A stretch of DNA of 63,765 nt, filler included, from Reclinomonas americana ATCC 50394 (Eukaryota), in the NCBI GenBank assembly GCA_048213135.1. It is 9 parts of 9 records of this genome, joined end to end, with 100 filler letters (N's around TTAATTAATTAA, not from the genome) between each part and the next. Parts side by side here need not be neighbours in the genome. Positions count along the whole stretch, not along the records: positions 25,478 to 35,322 come from AFZH01022803.1; 8 more parts are not named here. One strand, given 5' to 3'. The translations under genes were made by a program, and so were the position numbers. The notes beneath the pieces are model-generated. The model was not told the origin of the DNA. It was given only the letters and a program-made list of their open reading frames with translations, and searched no databases. Shown here piece after piece: positions 4,047 through 60,335 of the stretch; position 1 is the first letter of the stretch, and each line of letters begins with the position of its first letter.

Positions 4047-7000
4047 TAGTAGTACGTACGACGACGAGACGAGAGGAAGGAAGGAAGAAGTAGAGAGAGA
4101 AGTAGTACGTACGTACGTAACGTACGTACGTAGGTAGGNNNNNNNNNNNNNNNNNNNNNNNNNNNNNNNNNNNNNNNNNNNNTTAATTAATTAANNNNNN
4201 NNNNNNNNNNNNNNNNNNNNNNNNNNNNNNNNNNNNNNGAGAGAGAGAGAGGGTGAAAGTAATGTACTGCACATGCAGAGGGAGAAGAGGAATGCAGAAT
4301 GGAATGCTGAAACCTGCTTGGAAGAGGAAGGAAGAGAATGAAAGTTAGGGAAGGCGTGAGAGAGACGGGAGAGAGGGTGATGCACGGAGGGGAATGCAGT
4401 GCACAACACATGACAAGAGGGAGAAGAACCATGCAGAATGGCACGTAAGACTGCTTGCAATAGGAAGGAAGAGAAAGAAATGAGGAAGAGATGGAGAGAG
4501 TGAGAAGCAGTGCGCAGAACAACGAAGAGGGAGAAGAAGCATACAGAATGGCTCGGAAACCTGTTTGCAAGCGCAAGGAAGAGAAAGAAATGAGGGAGAG
4601 ATGGAGGGAGGGAGAGAGAGGGTGATGCAGCGAGGAGAAATCAGTGCGCAGCACAATAAGATGGAGAAGAGGCGTGCATCGGCTGGGGCAAGAAGAGGGA
4701 GTGCAGCAACAAGAGACTGGGGGCAGAATCGAAACATTGGGAGTGCCATAATTCATCCTTCCCATTCCGCGCTCTGCTCACTATTTCTGTCTCACAGGGC
4801 ACTTGCCTCGGTGGCGGCCTGGAAATCGCACTGGCGTGCCACTTCCGTGTGAGCACCGACGAGAGGAAGACGACGATTGGATTGCCGGAGGTCAAGCTCG
4901 GTCTGCTGCCTGGTGCTGGCGGTGTTGCGTCTTTCTCCTTGCTGAACGCGCAGCTTGAATGAGTAGTGCTGATAATGTGTGTGCACACAGACGGTGCGTC
5001 TGCCCAGGTTGATTGGAGTGCAAAAGGCACTGCAGATCATCTTGGCAGGAGGTGCGTGTGGTCATGAGTTGCTCCACGATCTTGATGTGTTGTTCATGTT
5101 GGAGCCGCAGGCACGGTAAACCCGGCTAAGGCCAAGGCCATTGGACTGGTCGATGCCGTGGTCGGTGGCAAGGATCGCTACAAGGGCGAGGGGCGGTGAG
5201 TTCAAGGGGAAGGGAAGGGGACAGGGAGGAGAAGGGGAGAGAGAGAGAGAAACAGAGGGCAAAGGAGAGGGAGAGAAGCTAAGGGAAAGGAGAGAGAGAT
5301 AAACATAGGAAAAAGGAAAGGGAGAGAGAAGCAGAGTGAGAGGGGAGAGAGTGAGAGGGGAGAGAGAGATGAGTTATTGTGGGCGCGTAATAGCAGGAGC
5401 ACAACGCTAAGCGGTCGTGGTGTCAACGAGTGCAGTGTAGTTGGCAAGAGAAGTGAGCGAGGCGGAGACCGTTTCTCAGTGCACCAGAGATTGCAGAACC
5501 GAGGTCGATGTGATGCATGTCGTGGTCGTAAAGTGCAGCATGGTAGCTAGAGAGAAACAGTGGAGAGTTTGCAAAACTGAGAGAAGCGTGTTTCCTTTTA
5601 CGTTCGTGTGGTTGCATGTGTGCCTTGAGAGTGTGAGTTCGTGTTTTGCGTTTGCAGAACTGAGGCAGCCCGTGTGTTTCCTTTTACGTTCGTGTGTGCC
5701 TTGGGAGAGTACGTACGTGTTTCGCGGAGTTTTTAAAAGCATAGGAGTGTGTGGATGTTCCGCGCAAAGCAAAGAATACAAGTGATGCAAAAGAGAGGTG
5801 TGACCGAGAATAGAAATACATGTTCCATTTGAAGCCGCTGTATTCAGGACACCGTCTTTTGTCGTGCGTCTCACTCTCTCTTCCCTTCCACCCCTTCCCC
5901 TTTTAACCTCTCAGATTTTTCAAGGAATGCCGCGTGTTCGTGGCCAAGCTGCTCGACAAGCCACCTGTCCGCAAGCCACGCGCCAAGCCGCTGTTTGACA
6001 GGCTGTTGGAGGACAACTCGCTGGGCCTGCATTTCATTGAGAAGCAGTCGGTGCAGATGCTGGACAAGGTTAGAGCGTATGTCAGTCGTTTTTTGACAGA
6101 GTTGGAAATCCAACCTATGCCACACACAGATGTCCAAGGGAAGGTACCCAGCTTCCTACCTGGCACTCAGCTCGGTGCTGCATGCAGCTCGCCAGCCGAA
6201 CATTCAAAAGGTAGCACGAACACTGTGAGCAGTAGAAGAATTTGTTCAAGGCGCTGACGTCGTGCTTGGCAGGCGTTCGAGTACGAGGCGCGCCTCTTTG
6301 GCCTCCTGGCGGCCACACCCGAGTCGAAGAACCTCATTTCCATTTACTTCCTCACCGAGGTGAGGGCGATGCATTCATTTCCGCGAATGGTGCCTGTCCT
6401 CACACCACTCTGCAGGACGCCAAGCGGCGTGCCAAGCTCACCGACAACGCCCCAGTGCACCCGGTGCGCAAAATTGGTGTCATTGGCGCGGGTGTGATGG
6501 GCAGTGCCATTGCGCAGCTGTTTGCGCAAAAGGGATTCAAGGTTTACATGAAGGTTTGTCGCAGGGGGAATGTGGGGAGAAAGAAAGAGCAAAGGGGGTG
6601 AAGGGGGAAGAGAGAGAGAGTTAGGAAGCGTTGGAAGTTTTTCCCCATACTTGCCTCAACACTCTCTTCGCTCCACCAGGACATCAAGCAAGAGTTCATC
6701 GACAACGGCATGAAGAACATTCGTTCCCTCTTCGAAGGCCTCGTCAAGCGCAACCGGTCAGTTTCCCACCTTCAATCCTCCCTCTCCATTCGCCTCTCAT
6801 CCCCCTTCCCCGTTAACAAAGCATGTCCGAGGAGGAGGGCAAGGCGGCGCTCGCCCGCGTCTCCGCCGGCGTGTCGTACGAGGGCTTTGCCGACGCCGAT
6901 GTGGTGGTGGAGGCAGCCGTGGAGGTGATGAGCCTGAAGAAGCGCATTCTGCAAGAGTGCCAGCAATCGATGCCGCAGCACTGCTTGTTTGCCACCAACA

Positions 7001-8678
7001 CGTCGTCGCTGTCGGTGACCGACTTGGCCACGGCCGCCACTCGCCCGGAGAACGTGCTCGGCATGCACTTTTTCAATCCGGTGAGCCGGATGCCGTTGGT
7101 GGAGGTCATTCGCGGTGTCAAGTCGTCCATGTCGGGTGAGGAAGGGAAGGGGAAGGGGAAGGGGAGGGTGAGGGGGAAGGGGACGGAGAAGGGAAAGGGA
7201 GGGAGGAGGAAGAACGGATAGAATGGATGAGTTTGTGAGGGAGCGATAATGCGAGAGACAGACAGACAGAGAGAGAGAGAGAGAGAGACAGCAATGGAGA
7301 TATTATGTGTATCTGTGTGTGCACGTGAGAGAGACGAAGAGAGTGTGTGGAATAGCGATAAAGCGATGCAGAATAAGAGAGAGAGAGAGAGAGAGAGAAA
7401 CAAAGACAGAGGTGCAAGGAGCGAAGAAGGACTCTCTCATATGCACATTACCCATCTCTCTGTCTTGTGCACCCGCTGTCACCCGCTCCCCTGTTTCTCA
7501 TCCTCTTCCCTTCCCACCCTCCGTCCTCTCCGTCCCCCTTTCCTTTCTCATCACCCTTCCCCCTTCGCCAGGCGTTGCCACCATCTATCAACTCACCCTG
7601 GACATTGGCAAGACGCCGGTCATTTGCGGCGACGCCCCCGGTTTCGTGGTGAACCGCATTCTGGGNNNNNNNNNNNNNNNNNNNNNNNNNNNNNNNNNNN
7701 NNNNNNNNNTTAATTAATTAANNNNNNNNNNNNNNNNNNNNNNNNNNNNNNNNNNNNNNNNNNNNGAGAGAGAGAGAGGGAGCGACGTCGCTATAGATGG
7801 TGGCTTCTTGTCATGTGCATATCGGTGTGCAGAAGGAGGGAGAGAAGGGACAAGAAATGAGTAATAATAGAAAGGGTTGCACAACACATTGCTTTCCGCA
7901 CTGAAAAGTGAGAGGAATGACGCTGTTGTTTTGGGAAGCCATGTATGTAAGAGAGTGTCTGTGCCGGAATTGTTTCCTGCTGTACCCTCGCCTTTGCCTT
8001 TCCTTCTCTCTCTTCGATCTCTGCTTTCCTCTCTTCTGTGTTTCTCTCATCCTTCAGTTAACCGTTGCCCCTCATTGCTTCTCTTCCATTGCCCCTCGTT
8101 TCTTCACTCTCTTCTTGTGTCGGTTCTTCTCTCTCCTCTCTTCTCTCGTCTCCACTCTTCCCTCTTCTCTTTTTCTATTCTCCTCTCCTTGCCCCCCATT
8201 GCCGCACTCTCTTCTTGTCTCGCAGTTCTTCTCTCTCTTCAAACCTCTCATATCTACTCTCTTCTATCCCATGGTATCTTCACTCTCTTCATGCTCCTGT
8301 CATTTCTTGTCTCTCATGTCTTCTCTCTTCTCTTGTCTTCCCCGTCACCCATCCCTTTCCCTTTCCCTCCCCCCGTCAGATCATGGGCACCGGTTTCGCT
8401 CCCTTCCGCGGCGGCCTTCTCAGCTACGCCGACTACCTCGGCGTCGCAAACGTGGTGAGAAGACTCGGCGATCTGGCCAAGTCGGTCGGAGCGCGCTTTG
8501 CTGCCTCGCAAAAGCTGGTGCGCATGGCCACCAACAACGAAAAGTTGCGCCTCCCCTCCTCTTCTCGTAATTGATTATGCCCCTTACTCACTCTCTCCCT
8601 GCAGATTCTTCCCGAAGCGCGTGACGGTGCCCGGCGAGCCAGGCTCCTCACTGCCGCTGCTGCGCGCCAAGCTGTGAG
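3095..8678 (+). CDS. Fatty-acid beta-oxidation multifunctional enzyme (enoyl-CoA hydratase + 3-hydroxyacyl-CoA dehydrogenase), FadJ/FadB/TFE-alpha type, with C-terminal PTS1 -AKL; spans two assembly gaps
   Basis: At least 16 exons. Motifs [53 protein letters not shown] (NAD binding), [33 protein letters not shown]. Ends LLRAKL-TGA at 8676-8678. Confidence 0.93.
4139..4238. other. Assembly gap with six-frame-stop linker TTAATTAATTAA (same at 7666-7765, 25378-25477, 35323-35422, 41194-41293, 45684-45783, 53668-53767, 59342-59441)
   Basis: Each gap is exactly 100 nt: N-run, TTAATTAATTAA, N-run. Confidence 0.98.
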
Positions 8679-10878: not shown

Positions 10879-16060
<5,182 letters not shown>

Positions 16061-21260: not shown

Positions 21261-21920
21261 TGGTTGCGACTCGTCTCTCGCTTTGACGAGGATGCAAGCG
21301 ACTCAATCGTTGCAGATCGTCGATGCCACTGAGATCACCCTCCGTGCGTGCAGTGCATGTCCGTGTGTGCATAGAGGGAGTGAGTATGTGTGAGGAAGAA
21401 GAGAGACATGCAGGGACATGTTCGCACACACACGCACACACACACACACACACTCGCTCACTCACAATGCGTGTGTGAGCATCATGCATGCTTGCAGTCT
21501 ATGTGAAACGAGTGCACTCACTGCCGCGGCATCGTTCATGGCGCATGCATACGCAAGTGGCGCCGGCGTGCATTGTAGGTCCCCCCGTTTCGATATTCTC
21601 CGGCATCGGTACCAGCTTCGTGTATCATAGCAATGCGTGCTCAACGAATCACTGGTCGCCAGGGTGGTGTGGCTGCCTATCACAAAGTGTGACGCGCCGT
21701 GGGCACAGCCACGTGCAGGAAACGAATCTTGCATTCATTCGTGGCCACGCGAGATCTGGACACACATACCAAATTCGTGCTGTTCTGCAAAACAATTGCG
21801 TCTGCTAGAAGGCCCAAAATGGTATGGCGAGTTTTTCCGATGGACAATAAAAAAAGAGGACAAAAATTCCGCGCCTTGTCTCTGCATTTTTTCTTTCTCT
21901 GTGAGCCAAGACAACTTTCC

Positions 21921-23580
21921 ATGTCGTTCACCAAGTCTATCGTGCTGTGCGCACTGGTGGCCATTGTCTGCCTGGCCTCTGTGGCCCAGGCCGGAGGTAT
22001 GTACTAACACCACCACGCAACGCTGCATTTCGTGCTGTCCGCCTCATGTTCCTCTTCTCTTGCAGGTGGCAGCTGCGCCGCCAACGTGGGTGCTTGCAAC
22101 CCCAACGGAACCTGCAGCAGCGGAACCTGCTCGTGCTACAACAACTGCTACACCGCCTCCAACGGCGTCAATGTGTGCGCCGTCTGGGCCGGTCCTTTCT
22201 GCACCTGGTAAGTCTCGTCAAAATACGGGCTTTCGCTTCGTTCGCTCTACTCTAAATCTTCTCTATCGCTGCCTCAGCCACCCCTACAAGACCTGCTCCA
22301 ACCACGGCTCGTGCAACGCCGCTGGCGCGTGCGTGTGCGACGCTGGCTACACGGGCTCCGACTGCAGCCAGACGGCGCCGCCGCCGCCACCGGCCTGCTC
22401 CGACGAGACCACCTGCAAGGGCCGCGGTCGCTGCAACGCCGCCGGCACGTGCGTGTGCGCCAAGGGCTGGACCGGTGCCGACTGCAGCACCGTCTTCGAC
22501 CCGTCGCCAGTGGCCTGCGTGGCCGACAACAACGGCAACGATACGCGCTGCGGTGCGCATGGCAACTGCCAGAACGGCGCGTGCGTGTGCCACTTCAACT
22601 GCAACGTGCTCAGCAACAACCTGTGCGGCACGTGGAAGAACCGCTTTGGTGACGCCTGCAGCGTGTCGCCGTACCCGCTCGCCACCAAGTTCGCGCTGAG
22701 CAAGGACACGTACGACGCGTACCAGGGCCTGGTCGCCAGCGACGACTTCTCCATTCTGTACACCGCCACCAGCACCTACGTCGACGCCGCCGCCACCAAC
22801 TTGCTGCTCAAGTCGACCAACTACGGTGTGTCGTGGACGGCTCTGACCGCTGCCGGCACTCACGCGTGGGAGTGGCTGGCGACCTCGGCCGACGGCAAGG
22901 TGCTGGTCGCCGCCGACGACCAGTACATCTACGTGTCGAAGGACGCAGGAGCCACCTTCAGCGCCAAGGCCACCGATGCTGTGCGCGTGTACTCGGCTAT
23001 CGCGGTCGACGCCAAGGGCAACACTATCATGGCCACCATTGCCAGCACGCCGGCGCCGGCCCTGCTGGTCTCGTACAACGGCGGCGACACTTTTGTGGAG
23101 CGCGGTGCCGGAGTTTTCTCGTCGCCGTACGCTCCCGCCATCTCGGCCGACGGCACCAAGATGGTGGTGGCCGACAAGGACGGCTACGTGTACACCTCGT
23201 TCGACGCGGGCGCCACCTGGACGAAGCGCACCACCACTGGTGTCTCCACCAAGTACTACGACGCGGCCACCAGCGACGATGGCACGCGCGTGCTGGTGTC
23301 GTCGCTCACCGGCAAGCTGTTCACCTCGGACGACTCGGGCATCACCTTCACCGCCCGCGAGACTGTGCGCAACTGGCGCACCGTGGCCGTCAGCGCCAGC
23401 GGCCTCGAGATGTACGCCTCCACCAACGAGGGCCTCGTGTTTGTGTCGCAGGATGGCGGCGTCTCATGGCAGCAGCGCCTCGACGCCCAGCAGTCGATCA
23501 ACGGTACTGCCACCAGCGCCGATGGTATCCGCGTGGCGATTGCCGGTGGTCCGGGGTCGATCTTCACGGCGTCCTTCTGA
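21921..23580 (+). CDS. Secreted protein: signal peptide, about four EGF-like repeats, C-terminal BNR/Asp-box beta-propeller
   Basis: Signal MSFTKSIVLCALVAIVCLASVAQA; two short GT-AG introns; EGF CSNHGSCNAAGACVCDAGYTGSDC; Asp-box repeats STNYGVSW, SKDAGATF, SYNGGDTF, SFDAGATW, SDDSGITF, SQDGGVSW. Confidence 0.88.
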
Positions 23581-25477
23581 ATGGTAGAAGGAGGAGGAGG
23601 TGGAGGAGGTTAAGAATGAATACATCTGCAATGCGGAAAGGAGGGGAAGGGGGACGGGAAGGGGAGGGCAAAGGCAAAGGGGGAGGGGAGGGAGAAGGAG
23701 AAGGAGAAAGCAGGGAGAGGGAGCAGCTGAAGGAGAAGGAGGAGTAAGTGAAAGAGGCGAAGAAGGCGACGAGGAAGGGAAAGGAGGAGGAGAAGAAGAA
23801 GAGGACGGGAAAGGAGGAGGAGAAGAAGAAGAGGACGGAGAAGGAGAACGAGGAGGAAGAAGAGGAGGAGGAGAAGAAGAACGAGGAGGAAGAAGAAAGA
23901 GAAAGACAAGAACAGATGAAGGATCCGGAACAGAAGGAACAAGAACAACAACAACAAGAAGAGGACACAGAGAAGAAGAATAAGAACGAGGAAGCAAAGG
24001 AGAAGGAGGAGGGCAGCTGACTTGTCTTCAGCGGACAGACGCGACACGGACAGTGGCTCGCTGCTCATTTGTCACCGTTTCACACTCAATCACTCACTCA
24101 CTCACGCGCGCGCGTTTGTGTGTGCGTGTTTTGCGCATCAGAGAGTGAGAGAGGGGGGTTTGGGAGGTGCTGGCGTATGAGAAGCGAGTGTTGAGTGAGA
24201 GACTGAGAGAAAACAAAAAAGAAGACAGATATGATTGTTGCGCGAGGAGCGACTGTGGCTGCGTGTGTGCCCATGGGCGCGCCTGGAGCGTTGCGTACTC
24301 TACTTATATATTGAGTGTGTGTCCACGCGTCTTTTGTGTGACACATACCCCCCCGCCAATTATTCTCGCTGTGTCAGTTGCACCTTGACGCAAAACGCAC
24401 GAACAATGACACACGCGCACACGCACGCTCTCTCTCGCACTCTCTCACACACTGACACACAGTTACACGCGCAGAAGCGAATCACACAAGCTCACACACT
24501 CATTGCGCACTCTCTTCTCCACTCACTCGCACACTCTCTCCCCCACTCTCTCTCACTCACACACACATTCTCTTTCTCTGTCACTCTTGTTGTGTGACAG
24601 TGTGTCACTCATTCAGTCTGTCTCTCAGGCAGTTTCTCTCTCTCTCTCAAACGCACGCGCGCGCACTCTCACTCTCTCGCTCTCTATGTGCTTGAGAGGG
24701 AGACAGTGTGCGTGTGTGTATGTGTGTGTGGGAGAGTGCACGAAAGAGTGATAAACAGCCACACACACATTCTCACACACGCTCAAGCACACACACACAC
24801 ACACACACACACGCACGCACTCTCATTCTTTCACTCTCTGTGTGCTTGAAAGGGAGACAGTGTGTATACGTGTCGTGTGTGCGAGAGTGTGTGTATAAAC
24901 AGACGTGCACTCACACAGTACACACACTTTCTCACTCTCTCTCACTCTGTCTCACTCACACACTGTCTCTCACACACTCTCTCGTATTGTGTCAGTGTCA
25001 CTCATTCACTCTGTCACACACAGACAGTTTCTCTCTCACACACGCACTCTTTCTCTCTCTCTATCACACACTCTCTCTGTGCTTGAGAGCGAGAGACAGT
25101 GTGCGTGTGTGTGTGCGAGAGTGTGTGAAAGTGAGAAACATGTGAGAGGAGCGACAGCAACAGCACACGTTCACTCACGCACTCACTCGCCCACACACTC
25201 TCACTCACACTCTCATTCTCTCTCTTTCGCACACACTCGCTCTCTCTTTCTCTCTCTCTCTCTCTCTCAGACACACGCTCTCTCTCTCTCTCACAGACGC
25301 ACACACACGCACCTCGTCTCATTCTCTCTCTCTTAAGCGCACTCTCGCACTCTCTCATTCTCTTGCTCACACGCACANNNNNNNNNNNNNNNNNNNNNNN
25401 NNNNNNNNNNNNNNNNNNNNNTTAATTAATTAANNNNNNNNNNNNNNNNNNNNNNNNNNNNNNNNNNNNNNNNNNNN

Positions 25478-27445
25478 GTGGACGCGGCGCCACCACCACC
25501 ACCACCATTATCGTCGGTGGTGGAGCCCATGGACGACGACAAGGACCAGGTGCAGGAGAGATTGGCGCGGAAGCGGCCGTGTGAGGAGATTGCCACGCAG
25601 ACCACGGCGCCGTCGTGCACCGACTCGGCGACCGATGCGCCACCCGACTGGACCTACGAGCCGCTCTCATTACATGCGCCGACGGCGGCGACCACCGCAG
25701 CAGCAGCCGCCGCAGCCCCACGACCACCTCCACTAAAACGCGCACGACATGGAGGCGTGCACGCCGACGCCCCACCTGCCGAGCAATGCGAGCGCATGCA
25801 AGGCGTCCTCGGCAAGAAGCTCAAGCGGTTGTTGACATTGCGCAAATCGTCGACCGCCAGGTGACCTTGCGCCCTCGGGTAGAGGGGAAAGAGAGTTTTA
25901 AAGTTATATAGTTGTTTGGTGAGGAAAAAGGGGGTGCTGGCGTGAGTGAATCGAAGAAATGGGAAGGGAGGGGGAAGAAAAGGGGAAGGGAGGGGAAGGG
26001 AAAGGGGAAGGGAAAGGGAGAGGGAAGATCAAGAGAAGGAAGGGACGTGAGAGAAGAAAGTAGGGAAGCGACGATGACGAGGAGGAATTTGTACGAAGAC
26101 AAGAAAAGAAGGGAGTGAGGAGGCAAGGGGGGCAGTGCAAGGCGGAATAAGAAGTGGTGCACAGAAAAGGTGTTGACAGGCGCTGGATAGGAAGAGGAAT
26201 TGCTGGCGAATAAGGAGGGCTGGATGAGAAAGAGGGAAGTGGTGCAGGTTAGGAGAAACCAGAGAGCAGGAATTCGAACTGCAAATACGTGTTGTCGGGA
26301 CTGCAGCTGCCATCAACCACATGCCATGGCCAGTGTGGTTCAAACTGCGCGTGCGCTCGCGATCGCCGAGCTCGAGAAGACTTCGAAGCATTGCTGCGAC
26401 GATCATCCACCGCAAAAGATCACCGTCTTGGTGTCGGTGAAAGTGAAGGCGGAGCTTCCTGTTGCCCATCATGTCGGAACTGCAGCTGCAAGGTGCCATC
26501 ATCCGCGTGCAAAAAGGGGCTCGCCGGCGCCGAGAATTCGAAGACTTCGAAGCATTGCTGCGACGATCATCCACCGCAAGGGATCACCGTACGCGTCTTG
26601 GCGCCTGTGAAAGTGAAGTCGGAGCTAGCGCTTCCTGTTGCCCACCATGTCGGGACTGCACCTGCAAGGTGCAAGCGAATTCATGATCAAGTTGCGCTCG
26701 AGCTCGTTCGTAAAGGCTTTCTGCGACGATCTTTCAACGCAAGAGATCACCGTCGTGATGCCAGGGAAAGTAAAGGCGGCGCTTCCTGTTGCCCACCACG
26801 CTGGACGATGGGAGGAAAGTAAAAAAAAAGCGCAAAGTTTACACAAGAGACAAAGTTTGCGCGCGAAAAACACGTCACACACACTTCCTCCTGCTTGCTT
26901 GTGTGCGTGAGACGAGACAACAACATGGCTGGCCGTCGCAAGATTGTTGACATGTTGCGTGAGTGAGTGAGCGCGCATGCGTGCGAGTGAGTGTGTGCTC
27001 ACTTGTCTTGCACACGCACAGGATCATTCAGAACTATGAGTCCAAGAAGGTCTCTCGTGCCATGCTGGACCGGATGGTGCGTGATGTGTTTGACTCGGTG
27101 GGCACGTTGGTGAGCAAGGCTGCCACGGAGGAGGAATGTTGCGTGCAAGTGGGAGGGAGGGAGGGAGGGAGGGAGAGAGAGAGAAGGGGGAGTGTGTGTG
27201 TGTGTGAGAGAGAGAGAGAGGAGGAAGAGAGAGAGAGAGAGAGGAGGAGAGAGGAGGAGAGAGAGAGAGAGAGAGCGAGTGAGTGCAGTGCGAGAGGGAG
27301 AGAGAAGGGAGAAGCGAGGGAGAGACAGAGAGATTGAGTGAGTGTGTGAGAGAGAGGGAGTGTGTGTGTGTGTGTGTGTGAGTGAGTGAGTGAGTGAGTG
27401 TGTGTGAGTGAGACAGAGAGAGATTGAGTGAGTGTGTGAGAGAGG

Positions 27446-27488
<43 letters not shown>

Positions 27489-28990
27489 GTTGTTTGAGTG
27501 AGATTGGCATTTTTTGACTGTGTTTGTGACTCTCTTGTGCAGCTCGTCTGTTGGTGCCGGGCTTTGGTACGTTCCAGAAGACGTGGGTGCAGGCGCGTAA
27601 GATTCGCACGATCAAGACCAAGGAGATCAAGGATGTGCGTGCAAGGGAAAAGAGGGAAGGGGAGGTTGGGAGGGAAGGGAGAGGGAGAAGAGAAAGAGAG
27701 AGGGAGAGAGAGAGAGGGAGAGGGAGAGAGAGAGAGAGAGAGAGAGGAGGGAGGAGGAGAGAGAGAGAGGAGAGGAGGAGACGAAGAAGAGCAAGAGAAG
27801 GGGAAGGGAGGGGGAGAGAGAGATCGCTGAGCAAGAGGGAGGGGAGGAGAGCGCACGAGAGAGTGGGGACCAAGCACGTGTGCGAGACAGCCGCTCACTC
27901 GGGGATAGAGTGCGGATGCGAGGCAGTGAAGAGAGGGGAGAGAGAGCGATTGACGGAGAGGTAGAAGACGACACAGCGCGAGGATGTGGGAGAGAGTGCA
28001 AGGGAAAAGAGAAGGGAGAGAGAGAATAGAGGCGGGAGACAACCGAAGAAAAGAGAACTGAGGAGGGAGAGCGCGCGTTAAGTAAATTTAGTGGGAGGAG
28101 GGCGAAGTTGGAGGGAGAGAGAGTGAGGGGAAGAGGGTAGAGAGAAGCGTAGTCGTGGATTCTTGCATCCGTGTTGTCTCTGAAATGCTGATTTTCGCAC
28201 CTTTTGTGCTCCTCTGTCTCTTTGCTGCCTTGTGGATCGAAGAGAGTGGCGAGGTATAGTTCAAGCAAGATAGTCAGGACGAAGGGCAGCTTTAGGCAGG
28301 TTTGAGAGGCTGTGTGTCGGCTTAGTGCAGGCGAAGAGTGACTCTTTCTGTTGTGTTGTCGTCATCCACTTGCAAGCTGGAGTACTTGACTGCATCCATT
28401 CCTTGTGATTTCTTGTCTCCCGAAACACGGACGCTTTCTTTGTTTTCGCTTTCTCTTGTTCTTGTCGCCATTCACTTGTGAACTGAGTGCATCTGTGGCG
28501 TATTTCCTGAGCTTCTTGTTGCCCTTCTCATTAAGCACGGAGTCTTTCTTGTTTGAGCTTGGCATCGCACCCTCTTGTTCTTTCCTTAGTCCACCATGAA
28601 CTGAATCTGCATGGTTGTTTCTATCCCTTGTCACAGTGAGTGCCTCACTTTTGGATCCTTATCTTGAATCGTCTTGTTGTCGTCTCTCGTCGTCCTAGTC
28701 TTCAGTTGCGTGTGAGCTGAGAGCGTCGTGTTGCATCCCCGCTCGCGACTCTGGCTGCGCTGCTCGACCCTTTGCATTCTTGTTTTTTGGCATCCATTCC
28801 CTGTTGCACAAACCAGTCATTGCTTCCCTGCAATCGCCTTCTCCCCTCACCCTCCCTTCTCCTGCATCCACAGATCCCCGCCCACACCAAGATGAGCTTC
28901 CGCGCCGCCCGCGAGCTCAAGAGCACCGTCTCCGAGAGCTCCACTGCGCCAAAGGGCAGCGGCAGTGGTTCCAGCGGATCCAGCGCGTAA
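25478..28990 (+). CDS. HU/IHF-like (bacterial histone-like DNA-binding) domain protein with low-complexity N-terminal extension; 5' end lost in gap
   Basis: Exons 25478-25860, 27022-27137, 27543-27634 and 28874-28990 join in frame to ...RKSSTARIIQNYESKKVSRAMLDRMVRDVFDSVGTLVSKAATEEESRLLVPGFGTFQKTWVQARKIRTIKTKEIKDIPAHTKMSFRAARELKSTV..., matching the HU signature GFGTF...ARxGRNPxTGExIxIPAxxxxxFKAGKxLKxxV. Confidence 0.85.
26280..26810. repeat. Three ~165-175 bp degenerate tandem units in the first visible intron of the HU-like gene
   Basis: GAAGACTTCGAAGCATTGCTGCGACGATCATCCACCGCAA at ~26376 and ~26540, variant ~26715; GCTTCCTGTTGCCCA at ~26454, 26630 and 26781. Confidence 0.85.
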
Positions 28991-29104
28991 CTGAACAGCG
29001 CAGACAACAGCGACGACGAAAGAGACAAAGAGTGCCCTGAATGAACGTCGTCACTGGTCCCATGGGACGCTTCTCATTCACTCACACCCGTGGTTGCGCC
29101 AACG

Positions 29105-45542: not shown

Positions 45543-45895
45543 ATGCTAGGCTCGATTCGCAACTTCTTCCGCTGGGCGCCCACCTCTGAGGACGCACTGG
45601 AGGCTGCTGAGCAGCAGCTGTGGGCCAGTGCGTTGTCACCTCTCAATCTCACACTTGCACACACTCTCTCACACACTCACACTNNNNNNNNNNNNNNNNN
45701 NNNNNNNNNNNNNNNNNNNNNNNNNNNTTAATTAATTAANNNNNNNNNNNNNNNNNNNNNNNNNNNNNNNNNNNNNNNNNNNNGCAGGACCCAAGTTGAT
45801 CAACGCCTATGTGACTCGTCGCTTCAACGGCACTGCGCCAGAGGGCTTCTCGCCGTACATTTACAACACTGTGGTTGCGTGCTGTGTGCCATGCC

Positions 45896-53667: not shown

Positions 53668-53767
53668 NNNNNNNNNNNNNNNNNNNNNNNNNNNNNNNNN
53701 NNNNNNNNNNNTTAATTAATTAANNNNNNNNNNNNNNNNNNNNNNNNNNNNNNNNNNNNNNNNNNNN

Positions 53768-58659: not shown

Positions 58660-60335
58660 TTTCCTCCGAGAGAGGCATAGGTAAGCGCCTTCATCGATTC
58701 TACTCTGAAAGTATTGTCTCCGGACGGCACATTCTGAACCCCCTGGCGCTGCCGCACTCCTCTCTTTTGCTGCTTTTTTTTTTGGAACGCTGCGATGAAG
58801 ATTGCATAGTGTCACCTCGTGGTCATGGAAGCCACGACGTCTTCAGAGGCCACAGAGGTTTGTGGTGCTAATTCCGAATTCGAAACATCGGCTTCGATTG
58901 CATATGCATGCCGTCGAATTCACAATCGACTTTGCGAACATTCCCGAGTCCCGCAACCACGCACAAGCACTCTGCACTCTGCGCACATGACGTATGCAGC
59001 GTCGACTATATTACACCGAGAGAGGCATTGGTAATCGCTTTCTTCGACTCTGGTAACGTGCATGGGTGCCACTTCCTAGGAGGAGGCGCTCTGACATTTG
59101 GCGATGCCGCACTCCTCTCTTTTGCTCTTTTCCCACCATAACTCTTGGTCATTATTGGCAAGGGATTTGTGAATGTGGTGAATGAAGTTTTTTGTAGTGT
59201 GGTTTCGTACGATATCGCGAGTATTTCCTTTTTCGTCATTCGAATTCGAATTCGATTGCTTTTGCAAGTCCCACAACCAGAAAACAAGCAAGCAGCATTG
59301 CACGCAGTTAACTACACCATGCAGCACAGTAATAGGTCTGANNNNNNNNNNNNNNNNNNNNNNNNNNNNNNNNNNNNNNNNNNNNTTAATTAATTAANNN
59401 NNNNNNNNNNNNNNNNNNNNNNNNNNNNNNNNNNNNNNNNNCCGCACTCCTCTCTTTTTTCTTCTTTTGTGGTGTGGAGAGTTATAAACCTGAAATGACT
59501 CAGTTTTGCAATCGATCCTTCAACTTCAAAGCTTCGGGGCTTCGAATTCGAATTCGATTCGGTGTTTCCTTTGGGTCCCACAACTGCAGTCAAGCACCCT
59601 ACGCCGGGCACATTTTACCATCATCATACCCACTACTTTAGTTCGAGAGAGGCATTGGCAATCGCCTTCATTGAATACTGCTGTGCGTACGAGCGCCTCT
59701 TCCGGATTCTCGGATTCGGAGAGGTGCTTGTTCATCCAATGGCGCTGCCGCACTCCTCTCTTTCTTTTTGCTGCTTTTTAGGTCAAGTTTGTTGTAAACC
59801 GGACGGGTCGAGGAGACCAGCTGCAGAAAATATCGAACCCGTTTTTGCAATGACGCGATCGAATTCGAATTCGATTGGGAGTTTCTTTTGGGTCCCACAA
59901 CCGCAGTCAAGCACCCTGCACCTGGCACACTTTATCTTCATCGCACCCACTGCTTCAGTTCGAGGGAGGCATTGGCAATCGCCTTCATTGAAACACTGCA
60001 ACGCGAACACCTAATCCGATATCCTTGGATTCGGAAGGGTGCTTGGTCATCCAACGGCGCTGCCGCACTCCTCTCTCTTTTTTTTAATGCGTGTACATAT
60101 ATCTCTTTCACTCTCTCTTTGCAGCCGCAACAATTATTCACTGCCGATGAATATTTGTCCGTCCCACAATCCAACTCGAACACCCGCCGATGCGCACATT
60201 TGAGGTGCGCTGTGAACCCAGCGCTCTGCTTCGAGAAAGGCACTGGTAAGCGCTTTCATTGATTCCACAACATGACTGCAGCAACCTCGGTTGCCGCGAT
60301 CTGACCCTAGCGCTGCCGCTCTCCTTTCTTTTGCT
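58660..60335. repeat. Complex tandem array, ~250-355 bp units, at least six copies, spanning a gap
   Basis: GCTGCCGCACTCCTCTCTTT at ~58748, 59105, 59442, 59744, 60059 and variant 60312; GAGAGGCATTGG-AATCGCCTTCATTGA and TTCGAATTCGAATTCGATT recur. Confidence 0.88.

What the first reader, a model, noticed from the sequence alone, without database searches (positions are those of the whole stretch)
25478..28990. Intron-containing eukaryotic gene for a bacterial-type HU/IHF histone-like protein with an NLS-like extension
Seen: four exons separated by repeat-filled GT-AG introns splice into a complete HU fold (helical region, GFGTF, beta-arm, IPA, FRAARELK). It is invisible in the ORF track because it is split. 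Upstream lie at least 120 aa of low-complexity sequence with basic motifs LARKRP and PPLKRARH. The arm tip reads RTIKT where HU/IHF have RNPxT, so the DNA-intercalating proline is replaced. Known: eukaryotic HU-like proteins occur mainly in plastid/apicoplast nucleoids, and HU-like HLPs in dinoflagellate nuclei. Inference: a domesticated bacterial or viral nucleoid protein serving either as nuclear chromatin protein or as organellar nucleoid protein, possibly with altered DNA bending. The true N-terminus is in a gap, so targeting is unresolved.
Basis: partly seen in the sequence, partly recalled or inferred. Interest (0 to 1): 0.78.

Follow-up and report, generated by a model that had tools for sequence, protein, structure and literature searches.

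The report
Intron-split HU-like gene in a eukaryote
A small gene broken up by three introns on a eukaryotic nuclear contig encodes a divergent relative of the bacterial DNA-packaging protein HU. Such genes are already known in algae, malaria-type parasites and dinoflagellates, and where this one acts in the cell is still open.

Summary
The HU-like gene is real. Three small + strand exons (27022-27137, 27543-27634, 28874-28990) have host-like codon usage and GT-AG borders. Joined, they align as one uninterrupted HU/IHF domain: 31.4 bits against my own 97-sequence HU profile, against at most 8.5 for 1000 shuffles and 14.1 for the exons in the wrong order. Exon 3 alone hits Pfam PF00216, but below its cut-off.

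The exon 2 donor must be GT at 27138, not the GT at 27143. A 38-nt start exon (ATG 26925, 59-nt intron) gives a complete 120-aa, pI 10.3 protein with no N-terminal extension. The upstream low-complexity ORF (25478-25861) is also phase-compatible, but it ends in a TGA on the donor itself and may belong to another gene. The "gap" is a contig-joining linker.

The arm keeps two arginines but has Ile where HU has the intercalating Pro. The spliced protein could not be sent to Pfam, fold or the large searches. My verdict is a new, divergent member of a known kind, with the compartment (nucleus or organelle) unresolved and a slight lean to non-organellar.

The parts
25378..25477 (.). Contig-joining linker (N44 + TTAATTAATTAA + N44). 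The HU contig runs 25478-35322.
   Evidence: One search finds eight identical linkers in the window. One search shows that the 3' exons of the inositol-3-phosphate synthase gene are absent from the next contig.
25478..25864 (+). Upstream low-complexity ORF, open at the contig start. It ends ...STAR and then TGA at 25862-25864, which overlaps a possible donor AG|GTGACC at 25861. It is either the last exon of another gene or an alternative 5' exon of the HU gene (phase 2, compatible with exon 2).
   Evidence: Translation. Stops found. Synonymous-codon index -0.117, above the 95th percentile of 334 ORFs but below the HU exons. No Pfam, NCBIfam or PHROG family. The only phmmer hit is an adapter and low-complexity artefact.
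26355..26805 (.). Tandem repeat of about 164 nt, three copies, between the upstream ORF and the start exon.
   Evidence: copies spaced 164 and 163 nt, 69-81% identity.
26925..26962 (+). Proposed start exon: ATG plus 12 codons plus 2 nt, supplying the start of helix 1. This is the first ATG after the in-frame stop at 26820.
   Evidence: The donor is GTGAGT. One HU (L109) aligns from residue 4 of the joined product. It adds only 0.8 bit to the profile score, so it is inferred, not shown.
26963..27021 (+). Intron 1 of the preferred model, 59 nt, GTGAGT...CACAG.
   Evidence: The neighbouring gene has a 61-nt first intron.
27022..27137 (+). Exon 2: end of helix 1, helix 2 and the loop (HU positions about 7-40, with a 5-residue insertion).
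   Evidence: Codon log-odds 0.91 bit per codon, GC3 0.76.
27138..27542 (+). Intron 2, 405 nt, GTTGCG...GTGCAG, made of (GA)n and (GT)n microsatellites.
   Evidence: It has the only acceptor in range and the first in-phase GT donor.
27543..27634 (+). Exon 3: GFGTF signature and the whole beta-arm (tip R-T-I-K-T).
   Evidence: PF00216 at E 0.0066. hhalign P 0.00053 on HU 44-66. Atlas top three clusters are PF00216, a lead only. 1.13 bit per codon.
27635..28873 (+). Intron 3, 1239 nt, GTGCGT...CCACAG, with a GA-rich repeat at its 5' end.
28874..28990 (+). Exon 4: last beta-strand, C-terminal helix (FRAARELK), a Ser/Gly-rich tail and the TAA stop.
   Evidence: 0.95 bit per codon, GC3 0.87.

Best explanation
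SHOWN
- An intact, long-resident nuclear gene is split by three spliceosomal introns and encodes a small protein of the bacterial HU/IHF fold family. The preferred model gives 120 aa and pI 10.3.

INFERRED FROM WHAT IS ESTABLISHED FOR HU
- It forms a dimer whose two beta-ribbon arms lie in the DNA minor groove. It binds DNA without sequence preference, as an architectural or compacting protein.
- The hydrophobic core is kept (G-F-G-T-F and the Phe at HupA position 79). So are two arm arginines (HupA positions 58 and 61) and the C-terminal Leu-Lys.
- The G-R-N-P tip is replaced by I-R-T-I, and the Arg at position 55 is Val. The sharp proline-intercalation kink of HU/IHF is therefore probably weakened, or taken over by an Ile wedge. 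That would favour coating or bridging over tight bending.

COMPARTMENT (inferred, weakest step)
- The preferred model starts directly with helix 1 and has no room for a transit peptide or presequence.
- The only alternative 5' exon is acidic, Pro/Ala-rich and carries NLS-like basic motifs, not transit-like sequence.
- I therefore lean to a non-organellar location, in the nucleus or cytosol, over an organellar nucleoid.
For: - Joined exons score 31.4 bits on a 97-sequence HU/IHF profile as one domain over positions 7-89. The maximum of 1000 shuffles is 8.5, the wrong exon order gives 14.1, and each exon adds score.
- hhalign probability is 92.7%.
- BLASTP hits 95 of 97 HU sequences. The best is 32% identity over 90 aa, 39.3 bits.
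- Exon 3 alone hits PF00216 at E 0.0066.
- Per-exon hhalign placements are colinear.
- The blind chain search picks this locus.
- Coding signal: 0.91, 1.13 and 0.95 bit per codon in frame and negative out of frame. Synonymous-codon indices of 0.10, 0.33 and 0.31 all lie above the 99th percentile (0.039) of 334 ORFs.
- Splice sites are canonical and match the homology-anchored introns of the neighbouring gene: GTAAAG, GTGAGT, GTGAGT donors, AG acceptors, and a 1132-nt repeat-rich intron.
- Start exon: first ATG after an in-frame stop, GTGAGT donor, 59-nt intron like the neighbour's 61-nt one.
- Arm residues can be read directly.
Against: - No transcript evidence. No sequencing run could be listed, so every junction and the 5' end are predictions.
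- The spliced product could not be sent to Pfam. The only Pfam hit (17.1 bits) is below the 22.4 cut-off, and my profile is home-made and rich in Gammaproteobacteria.
- Single exons found nothing in the PDB (0 of 3), NCBIfam or PHROGs.
- The start exon adds only 0.8 bit, and the upstream ORF is equally phase-compatible.
- By recall, most nuclear HU-like genes of eukaryotes are plastid-targeted, so the prior favours an organellar role. A targeting exon could lie beyond the contig start.
- Alternative in-frame junctions exist: GC donors at 27102, 27114 and 27141, GT donors at 27192 and 27198, and acceptors at 28816 and 28891.
- Dimerisation and DNA binding are untested.
Confidence: 0.5

Rival explanations
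1. It is an ordinary organellar nucleoid protein, plastid or mitochondrial, like the nuclear-encoded HU of algae and apicomplexans. On this view the targeting peptide lies in a 5' exon that I mis-assigned (the upstream ORF) or that lies beyond the contig start.
For: - Nuclear Bac_DNA_binding genes occur once per genome in haptophytes, a diatom, Nannochloropsis and Chlamydomonas (PMC4827209, passages).
- HU organises plastid and apicoplast nucleoids (PMC13108849, passages).
- The upstream ORF is open to the contig edge and phase-compatible with exon 2.
- Its second half is Ala/Thr/Pro/Arg-rich.
- The profile does not discriminate between the 5' models.
Against: - The visible part of the upstream ORF is rich in Asp and Glu and carries KRARH- and RKRP-type motifs, unlike a transit peptide.
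- It ends in a TGA on its own donor.
- A complete start exon exists.
- No plastid-type gene turned up among the 196 ORFs scanned. That is weak evidence.
- The best match of the neighbouring housekeeping gene is a non-photosynthetic heterolobosean at only 70%.
- The protein is far more divergent than the bacterial HUs sampled: 31 bits, against 83-127 bits for 20 of the 25 Pfam matches in five genomes. The two scores come from different profiles.
Confidence: 0.35
2. It is a decaying or unexpressed relic of an old gene transfer. The open frame has not yet been lost and the protein has no present function.
For: - The canonical arm motif is lost: Gly60, Asn62, Pro63 and Gly66 are all replaced.
- No homologue shares 5-residue words with exon 2 or exon 3 in 5.8 billion proteins.
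- No expression data.
Against: - The frame is intact over 120 codons across three introns.
- Synonymous-codon bias is above the 99th percentile of the window's ORFs in all three core exons.
- Splice sites are canonical.
- Core and DNA-contact residues are kept.
Confidence: 0.08
3. It is a chance resemblance: unrelated ORF fragments stitched together by choosing splice sites that happen to look like HU.
For: - Each exon alone is weak: 3.8, 11.1 and 5.0 bits.
- The blind chain score (13.5) exceeds the best of 20 block shuffles (9.8) only moderately.
- I chose the splice sites with the HU alignment in mind.
Against: - The joined score of 31.4 bits compares with 8.5 at most in 1000 shuffles.
- The codon signal falls exactly on the three exons and in the right frame, and that is independent evidence.
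- There is only one acceptor in range for intron 2, and the exons are colinear with no arm gap.
- Pfam and the Atlas both point to PF00216 from exon 3 alone.
Confidence: 0.03

Closest known systems
Bacterial HU (E. coli HupA/HupB, Bacillales HU)
   Same: - Same length class for the domain, about 90 aa.
- It aligns end to end, at 26-43% local identity.
- The GFGTF turn, Phe79, Arg58, Arg61 and Leu85-Lys86 are kept, and the arm has the same length with no indel.
   Different: - The gene has spliceosomal introns and eukaryotic codon usage.
- The arm tip G-R-N-P is replaced by I-R-T-I, Arg55 by Val, and Gly66 by Lys.
- There is a 5-residue insertion after helix 2 and a 19-residue Ser/Gly-rich C-terminal tail.
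Nuclear-encoded plastid or apicoplast HU (Chlamydomonas HLP, Toxoplasma and Plasmodium HU, single Bac_DNA_binding genes of haptophytes and diatoms)
   Same: It is a eukaryotic nuclear gene for an HU-family protein (PMC4827209 and PMC13108849, passages read).
   Different: - No transit or bipartite targeting peptide in the preferred model.
- The host is not known to have a plastid.
- I could not compare sequences directly, because no eukaryotic HU sequence could be fetched with the searches I had left.
[quoted passage not shown]
   Same: They are small basic nuclear proteins with only limited similarity to bacterial HU, acquired by transfer (PMC6723414, passages read). This is the model for a nuclear role.
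   Different: - All donors seen on this contig are GT: 3 homology-anchored and 5 predicted. By recall, dinoflagellate genomes have frequent GC and GA donors.
- The neighbouring housekeeping gene has no dinoflagellate-like best hit.
- No sequence comparison was possible.
Proline-less HU paralogues of bacteria (for example the Chitinophagales copy in locus L094, arm ...G-R-I-I-K-K...)
   Same: They have Ile at the arm-tip position. Two of 17 HU-family sequences found in five genomes without any motif pre-selection lack the proline.
   Different: There is no particular similarity. L094 is not among the 95 of 97 sequences that BLASTP hit at E below 100.
Viral HU-like proteins (phage HUs, ASFV pA104R)
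   Same: Same fold family.
   Different: - 79 of 80 viral-contig HUs hit at no more than 37.0 bits, no better than the bacterial ones.
- Motif scans of viral contigs found only one phage family, and it has the normal proline.
- ASFV pA104R was not compared.

Membership tests
HU/IHF family (Pfam PF00216 Bac_DNA_binding) | Profile match over the whole ~90-aa domain above the family cut-off | tested here: inconclusive
   Pfam could only be given single exons. Exon 3 scored 17.1 bits against a cut-off of 22.4. My own 97-sequence HU/IHF profile gives 31.4 bits over positions 7-89 for the joined product, and hhalign gives 92.7%.
HU/IHF family (Pfam PF00216 Bac_DNA_binding) | G-F-G-x-F turn and conserved aromatic core (HupA F47, F50, F79) | tested here: met
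   All are present. These columns are 96-97 of 97 conserved in my alignment, except F50 (92 of 97, the rest Trp or Tyr).
HU/IHF family (Pfam PF00216 Bac_DNA_binding) | Beta-arm with basic DNA-contact residues (Arg55, Arg58, Arg61) | tested here: met
   Arg58 and Arg61 are kept and Arg55 is Val. The arm has the same length and is Lys/Arg-rich.
HU/IHF family (Pfam PF00216 Bac_DNA_binding) | Intercalating proline at the arm tip (R-N-P-x-T) | tested here: not met
   The tip reads R-T-I-K-T, with Ile at the Pro63 column. Pro is present in 95 of 97 sequences overall and in 15 of 17 chosen without a motif filter. This feature is typical but not universal, so it marks an atypical member and does not exclude membership.
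HU/IHF family (Pfam PF00216 Bac_DNA_binding) | Intertwined dimer of the alpha-alpha-beta-beta-beta-alpha fold, and DNA binding | not testable with these tools
Nuclear-encoded plastid/apicoplast HU | N-terminal transit or bipartite targeting peptide | tested here: inconclusive
   It is absent from the preferred model, where helix 1 starts at about residue 5. The alternative 5' ORF is acidic and NLS-like. The 5' end is not verified by transcripts.
Nuclear-encoded plastid/apicoplast HU | Placement among cyanobacterial or plastid HU in a tree | not tested
   No cyanobacterial, plastid or algal HU sequences could be fetched.
Dinoflagellate HLP-I/II | Dinoflagellate host and sequence grouping with HCc-type proteins | not tested
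   The host is unidentified and no HLP sequence was available. The splice-site pattern (all GT) does not suggest a dinoflagellate. That comparison rests on recall.

The most novel reading that the evidence does not exclude
An HU-fold protein without any organelle-targeting sequence acts on nuclear chromatin, or otherwise as the mitochondrial nucleoid protein, in a poorly sampled and possibly plastid-free protist lineage outside the dinoflagellates. This would be an independent domestication of a bacterial nucleoid protein, with a remodelled, proline-less DNA-binding arm.
Probability: 0.25. Interest if true: 0.75.

Novelty: new member of a known kind. Interest (0 to 1): 0.45.

Why it matters
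Eukaryotes almost always package nuclear DNA with histones and use HU only inside plastids. The dinoflagellate histone-like proteins are the textbook exception. A second lineage with a presequence-less, highly diverged HU-like protein would be a natural experiment in how a bacterial DNA bender is refitted for eukaryotic chromatin or for a mitochondrial nucleoid. The Pro-to-Ile arm would also be a ready-made test of what the intercalating proline contributes. If the protein turns out to be a plastid HU of an unsampled alga, it is routine. On the practical side, the gene is invisible to ORF-based annotation, because its exons are only 38-117 nt long. It is also probably unannotated: neither core exon searched (exons 2 and 3) shares words with any protein of 71 residues or more (exon 2) or 80 or more (exon 3) in a 5.8-billion-protein collection.

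Tried and rejected
EXPRESSION AND GENOME
- Sequencing runs for 25478-30500: none was listed, RNA or DNA, so no reads could be laid.
- No whole genome is held for this window.

HOMOLOGUE SEARCHES WITH SINGLE EXONS
- Exon 2, and exon 3 with its in-frame flanks, in 'longer' mode: 2 and 7 word-sharing candidates, none scoring. Shorter proteins were not searched.
- PDB phmmer: 0 of 3 exons matched.
- Phage tblastn with exon 3: no match.
- NCBIfam and PHROGs: nothing for the exons.

MOTIF SCANS
- Back-translated GFGTFQKTW: 0 viral loci. The 1 metagenome locus was a chance match outside any ORF.
- GFGTFQK in viral contigs: 44 loci, made up of one phage HU family with the normal proline plus chance hits.

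OTHER CHECKS
- Upstream ORF against 1.84 billion representatives: 1 hit, a tandem artefact that appears to contain translated sequencing-adapter sequence.
- Earlier-findings look-ups: nothing relevant.
- Rfam and tRNA scans of the contig: nothing.
- The Atlas on the inositol-3-phosphate synthase exon gave no taxon.
- PMC161454 (Wong et al. 2003 on HCc) is not held.

REJECTED IDEAS
- Bacterial contamination: the gene has introns and eukaryotic neighbours on the same contig.
- Donor at 27143: it breaks the frame.
- Trusting neighbours across the linkers.

NOT ATTEMPTED
- A labelled phylogeny.
Full report
WHAT THE WINDOW IS
The window is not one contiguous piece of genome. It contains eight identical 100-nt linkers (44 N, TTAATTAATTAA, 44 N) that join nine contigs.

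Order across linkers cannot be trusted. An inositol-3-phosphate synthase gene has its first exons at about 32674-32799, 33094-33191 and 34324-34758. The rest of that gene is absent from the following contig.

The contig is eukaryotic nuclear DNA. The homology-anchored introns of that gene have GTAAAG and GTGAGT donors and AG acceptors. They are about 294 and 1132 nt long and full of simple repeats. No whole genome is held, and no sequencing run could be listed.

CHECKING THE OBSERVATION
The three HU-bearing exons exist as described and share one reading frame.

Evidence from single exons:
- Exon 3 hits Pfam PF00216 at E 0.0066 and 17.1 bits, below the 22.4 cut-off. Exon 2, exon 4 and the upstream ORF gave nothing (1 of 4 peptides).
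- hhalign against an E. coli HupA/HupB/IhfA/IhfB profile places exon 2 on HU columns 18-29 (P 0.093), exon 3 on 44-66 (P 0.00053) and exon 4 on 76-89 (P 0.017). That is colinear and in gene order (MAFFT tiling).

I therefore joined the exons inside scripts and scored the product against HU profiles that I built here:
- The first profile used 82 sequences: 4 from E. coli and 78 of the 80 genome loci. Two loci were dropped by the script's length and stop filters. Score: 26.7 bits, against 10.0 for the best of 500 shuffles.
- The second profile added HU-family sequences that Pfam found in five further genomes, giving 97 distinct sequences. Score: 31.4 bits as a single domain over profile positions 7-89, with no gap in the arm.
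- Against the second profile, the single exons score 3.8, 11.1 and 5.0 bits, exons 2+3 score 16.8, and exons 3+4 score 24.5.
- Controls against the second profile: exons in reverse order 14.1 bits, exon 3 skipped 8.9 bits, and the best of 1000 shuffles 8.5 bits (953 of the 1000 received any score).
- hhalign gives 92.7% probability.
- BLASTP hits 95 of the 97 HU sequences, the best at 32% identity over 90 residues and 39.3 bits.

A blind control did not use splice sites at all. It chained colinear profile hits among all stop-free fragments of the window on both strands. The best chain fell exactly on these three exons at 13.5 bits. The reversed window gave 6.7, and 20 block-shuffled windows gave at most 9.8.

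Codon usage is independent evidence:
- In-frame codon log-odds, trained on two other genes of the window, are 0.91, 1.13 and 0.95 bit per codon in the three exons. They are negative in the other frames and in the introns.
- A synonymous-codon index puts all three exons above the 99th percentile of the window's 334 ORFs of 100 codons or more.

CORRECTIONS TO THE GENE MODEL
First, the obvious GT after exon 2 (27143) breaks the frame. The only acceptor in range is the AG ending at 27542, and the first in-phase GT donor is GTTGCG at 27138. That gives a Ser codon across the junction. Other in-frame options are GC donors at 27102, 27114 and 27141 and microsatellite GTs at 27192 and 27198. They change a few residues but not the HU core. 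The neighbouring gene uses a similar GTTGAG donor.

Second, the 5' end has two candidates.

- It is phase-compatible with exon 2.
- It reads ...STAR and then TGA at 25862-25864, on its own putative donor. It could equally be the last exon of another gene cut by the contig end.
- Its codon index is intermediate: -0.117, above the 95th but below the 99th percentile. The first half scores 0.106 and the second half -0.34.
- It has no family match.
- Its only hit among 1.84 billion representative proteins is a tandem artefact.

The alternative start exon (26925-26962):
- It begins with the first ATG after an in-frame stop at 26820.
- It encodes 12 residues plus a split codon.
- It has a consensus GTGAGT donor and a 59-nt intron. 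The neighbouring ATP synthase d-like gene has a 61-nt first intron.
- It supplies an amphipathic beginning for helix 1. One HU sequence (L109) aligns from residue 4 of this model.

The profile barely discriminates: 31.4 bits with the start exon, 30.6 with no 5' exon, and 28.5 with the upstream ORF. My estimate is about 55% for the short model, 25% for the upstream ORF, and 20% for something else, including an exon beyond the contig start.

Between the two candidates lie a GA-rich microsatellite and three tandem copies of a 164-nt unit.

WHAT THE PROTEIN LOOKS LIKE
The short model is 120 residues, 13.2 kDa and pI 10.3. Compared with E. coli HupA numbering, it keeps:
- Gly46-Phe47-Gly48, Phe50 and Phe79;
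- Arg58 and Arg61;
- Leu85-Lys86.

It differs as follows:
- Arg55 is Val, Gly60 is Ile, Asn62 is Thr, Pro63 is Ile and Gly66 is Lys.
- The arm has no indel.
- There is a 5-residue insertion after helix 2 and a 19-residue Ser/Gly-rich tail.

The tip lies inside exon 3, so the missing proline is not a splicing artefact.

The proline is typical of HU but not universal. Of 17 HU-family sequences recovered from five genomes without any motif filter, 15 have it. One, a Chitinophagales paralogue, even has Ile there. That paralogue is not especially similar to the window's protein.

HOW IT MOST LIKELY WORKS
What follows for this protein is inferred from established knowledge of HU and IHF, which I recall and did not test. 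In HU and IHF, intertwined dimers insert two beta-ribbon arms into the minor groove, and the tip prolines kink the DNA.

The protein should be a dimeric, sequence-independent DNA-binding protein. Its basic arms still embrace DNA, but its bending is altered. It is either weaker or driven by an Ile wedge, so coating or bridging may dominate.

Three introns in a 363-nt coding sequence and fully host-like codon usage show long residence in the nucleus. This is not contamination or a recent transfer.

WHERE IT ACTS
This is the open question.
- Points for a non-organellar location: the preferred model leaves no room for a targeting peptide, and the alternative 5' ORF is acidic with NLS-like basic motifs.
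- Points for an organellar location: by recall, most nuclear HU genes of eukaryotes are plastid-targeted, and single nuclear Bac_DNA_binding genes are reported for several algae (PMC4827209, passages). HU organises plastid and apicoplast nucleoids (PMC13108849, passages). A targeting exon could also lie off the contig.
- Dinoflagellate HLP-I and HLP-II show that HU-like proteins can serve in the nucleus (PMC6723414, passages).

I lean slightly to a non-organellar location (about 0.5) over an organellar nucleoid role (about 0.35).

RELATIVES AND HOST
- No protein shares enough 5-residue words with exon 2 (among proteins of 71 residues or more) or with exon 3 (among those of 80 or more) to score, in a 5.8-billion-protein collection that includes EukProt and NCBI eukaryotes.
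- Motif scans found no relative in viral or metagenome contigs.
- 79 of 80 typical viral-contig HUs match no better (at most 37.0 bits) than bacterial ones.
- The protein therefore looks roughly equidistant from all the HUs sampled. Short exon queries make this a weak negative.
- The host is unidentified. The conserved exon of its inositol-3-phosphate synthase is at most 70% identical to anything in the collection. The top hit is a Pharyngomonas kirbyi transcript. The organism's own proteins are not in the collection.
- Pfam scans of 196 ORFs across the window found only general eukaryotic genes.

VERDICT
The HU-like gene is real, and its structure is now better defined. It is a divergent new member of a known kind, namely eukaryotic nuclear genes for HU-family proteins. 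The NLS-bearing extension and any statement about compartment or origin remain unproven.

Noticed in passing
window 4139-4238, 7666-7765, 25378-25477, 35323-35422, 41194-41293, 45684-45783, 53668-53767, 59342-59441: Eight identical 100-nt linkers (N44 + TTAATTAATTAA + N44) show that the window is a chain of nine short contigs (about 3.4-17.6 kb). Gene neighbourhood across them is unreliable.
   Followed up: yes
window 29105-30153 (+): A gene starts only 114 nt after the HU stop codon. It has a presequence-like N-terminus, a 61-nt first intron (GTTGAG...CAG, 29211-29271), and a last exon that weakly matches mitochondrial ATP synthase subunit d (PF05873, E 0.00026, below cut-off).
   Followed up: partly
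window 32674-34758 (+): This is the 5' part of an inositol-3-phosphate synthase gene: three exons and introns of about 294 and 1132 nt, cut off by the contig end. The best database identity is only 70% (a Pharyngomonas kirbyi transcript), so the host is a poorly sampled lineage.
   Followed up: partly
window 26355-26805: There are three tandem copies of a 164-nt unit (69-81% identity) just upstream of the proposed HU start exon. Their function is unknown and they have no Pfam hit in any frame tested.
   Followed up: partly
window 21631-23580 (+): A long open exon carries EGF/teneurin-type EGF repeats and the start of a Sortilin/VPS10 domain with BNR repeats. It lies on the preceding contig, and the remainder of the domain was not found.
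   Followed up: no
window 36955-38088 (-): Two adjacent minus-strand ORFs in different frames both match the same segment (positions about 59-92) of the SprT-like metalloprotease profile. This could be tandem copies or a frameshifted duplicate.
   Followed up: no
window 6236-7218 (+) and 14151-14918 (-): Exons of a 3-hydroxyacyl-CoA dehydrogenase (PF02737, E 2e-34) and of a DMAP1-type SANT domain protein (PF16282, E 2e-20).
   Followed up: no
protein P0125 (representative library): The only hit of the upstream ORF is a 1088-aa 'protein' made of a tandemly repeated unit. It looks like a translated sequencing-adapter and low-complexity artefact, that is, a database contaminant and not a homologue.
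   Followed up: partly
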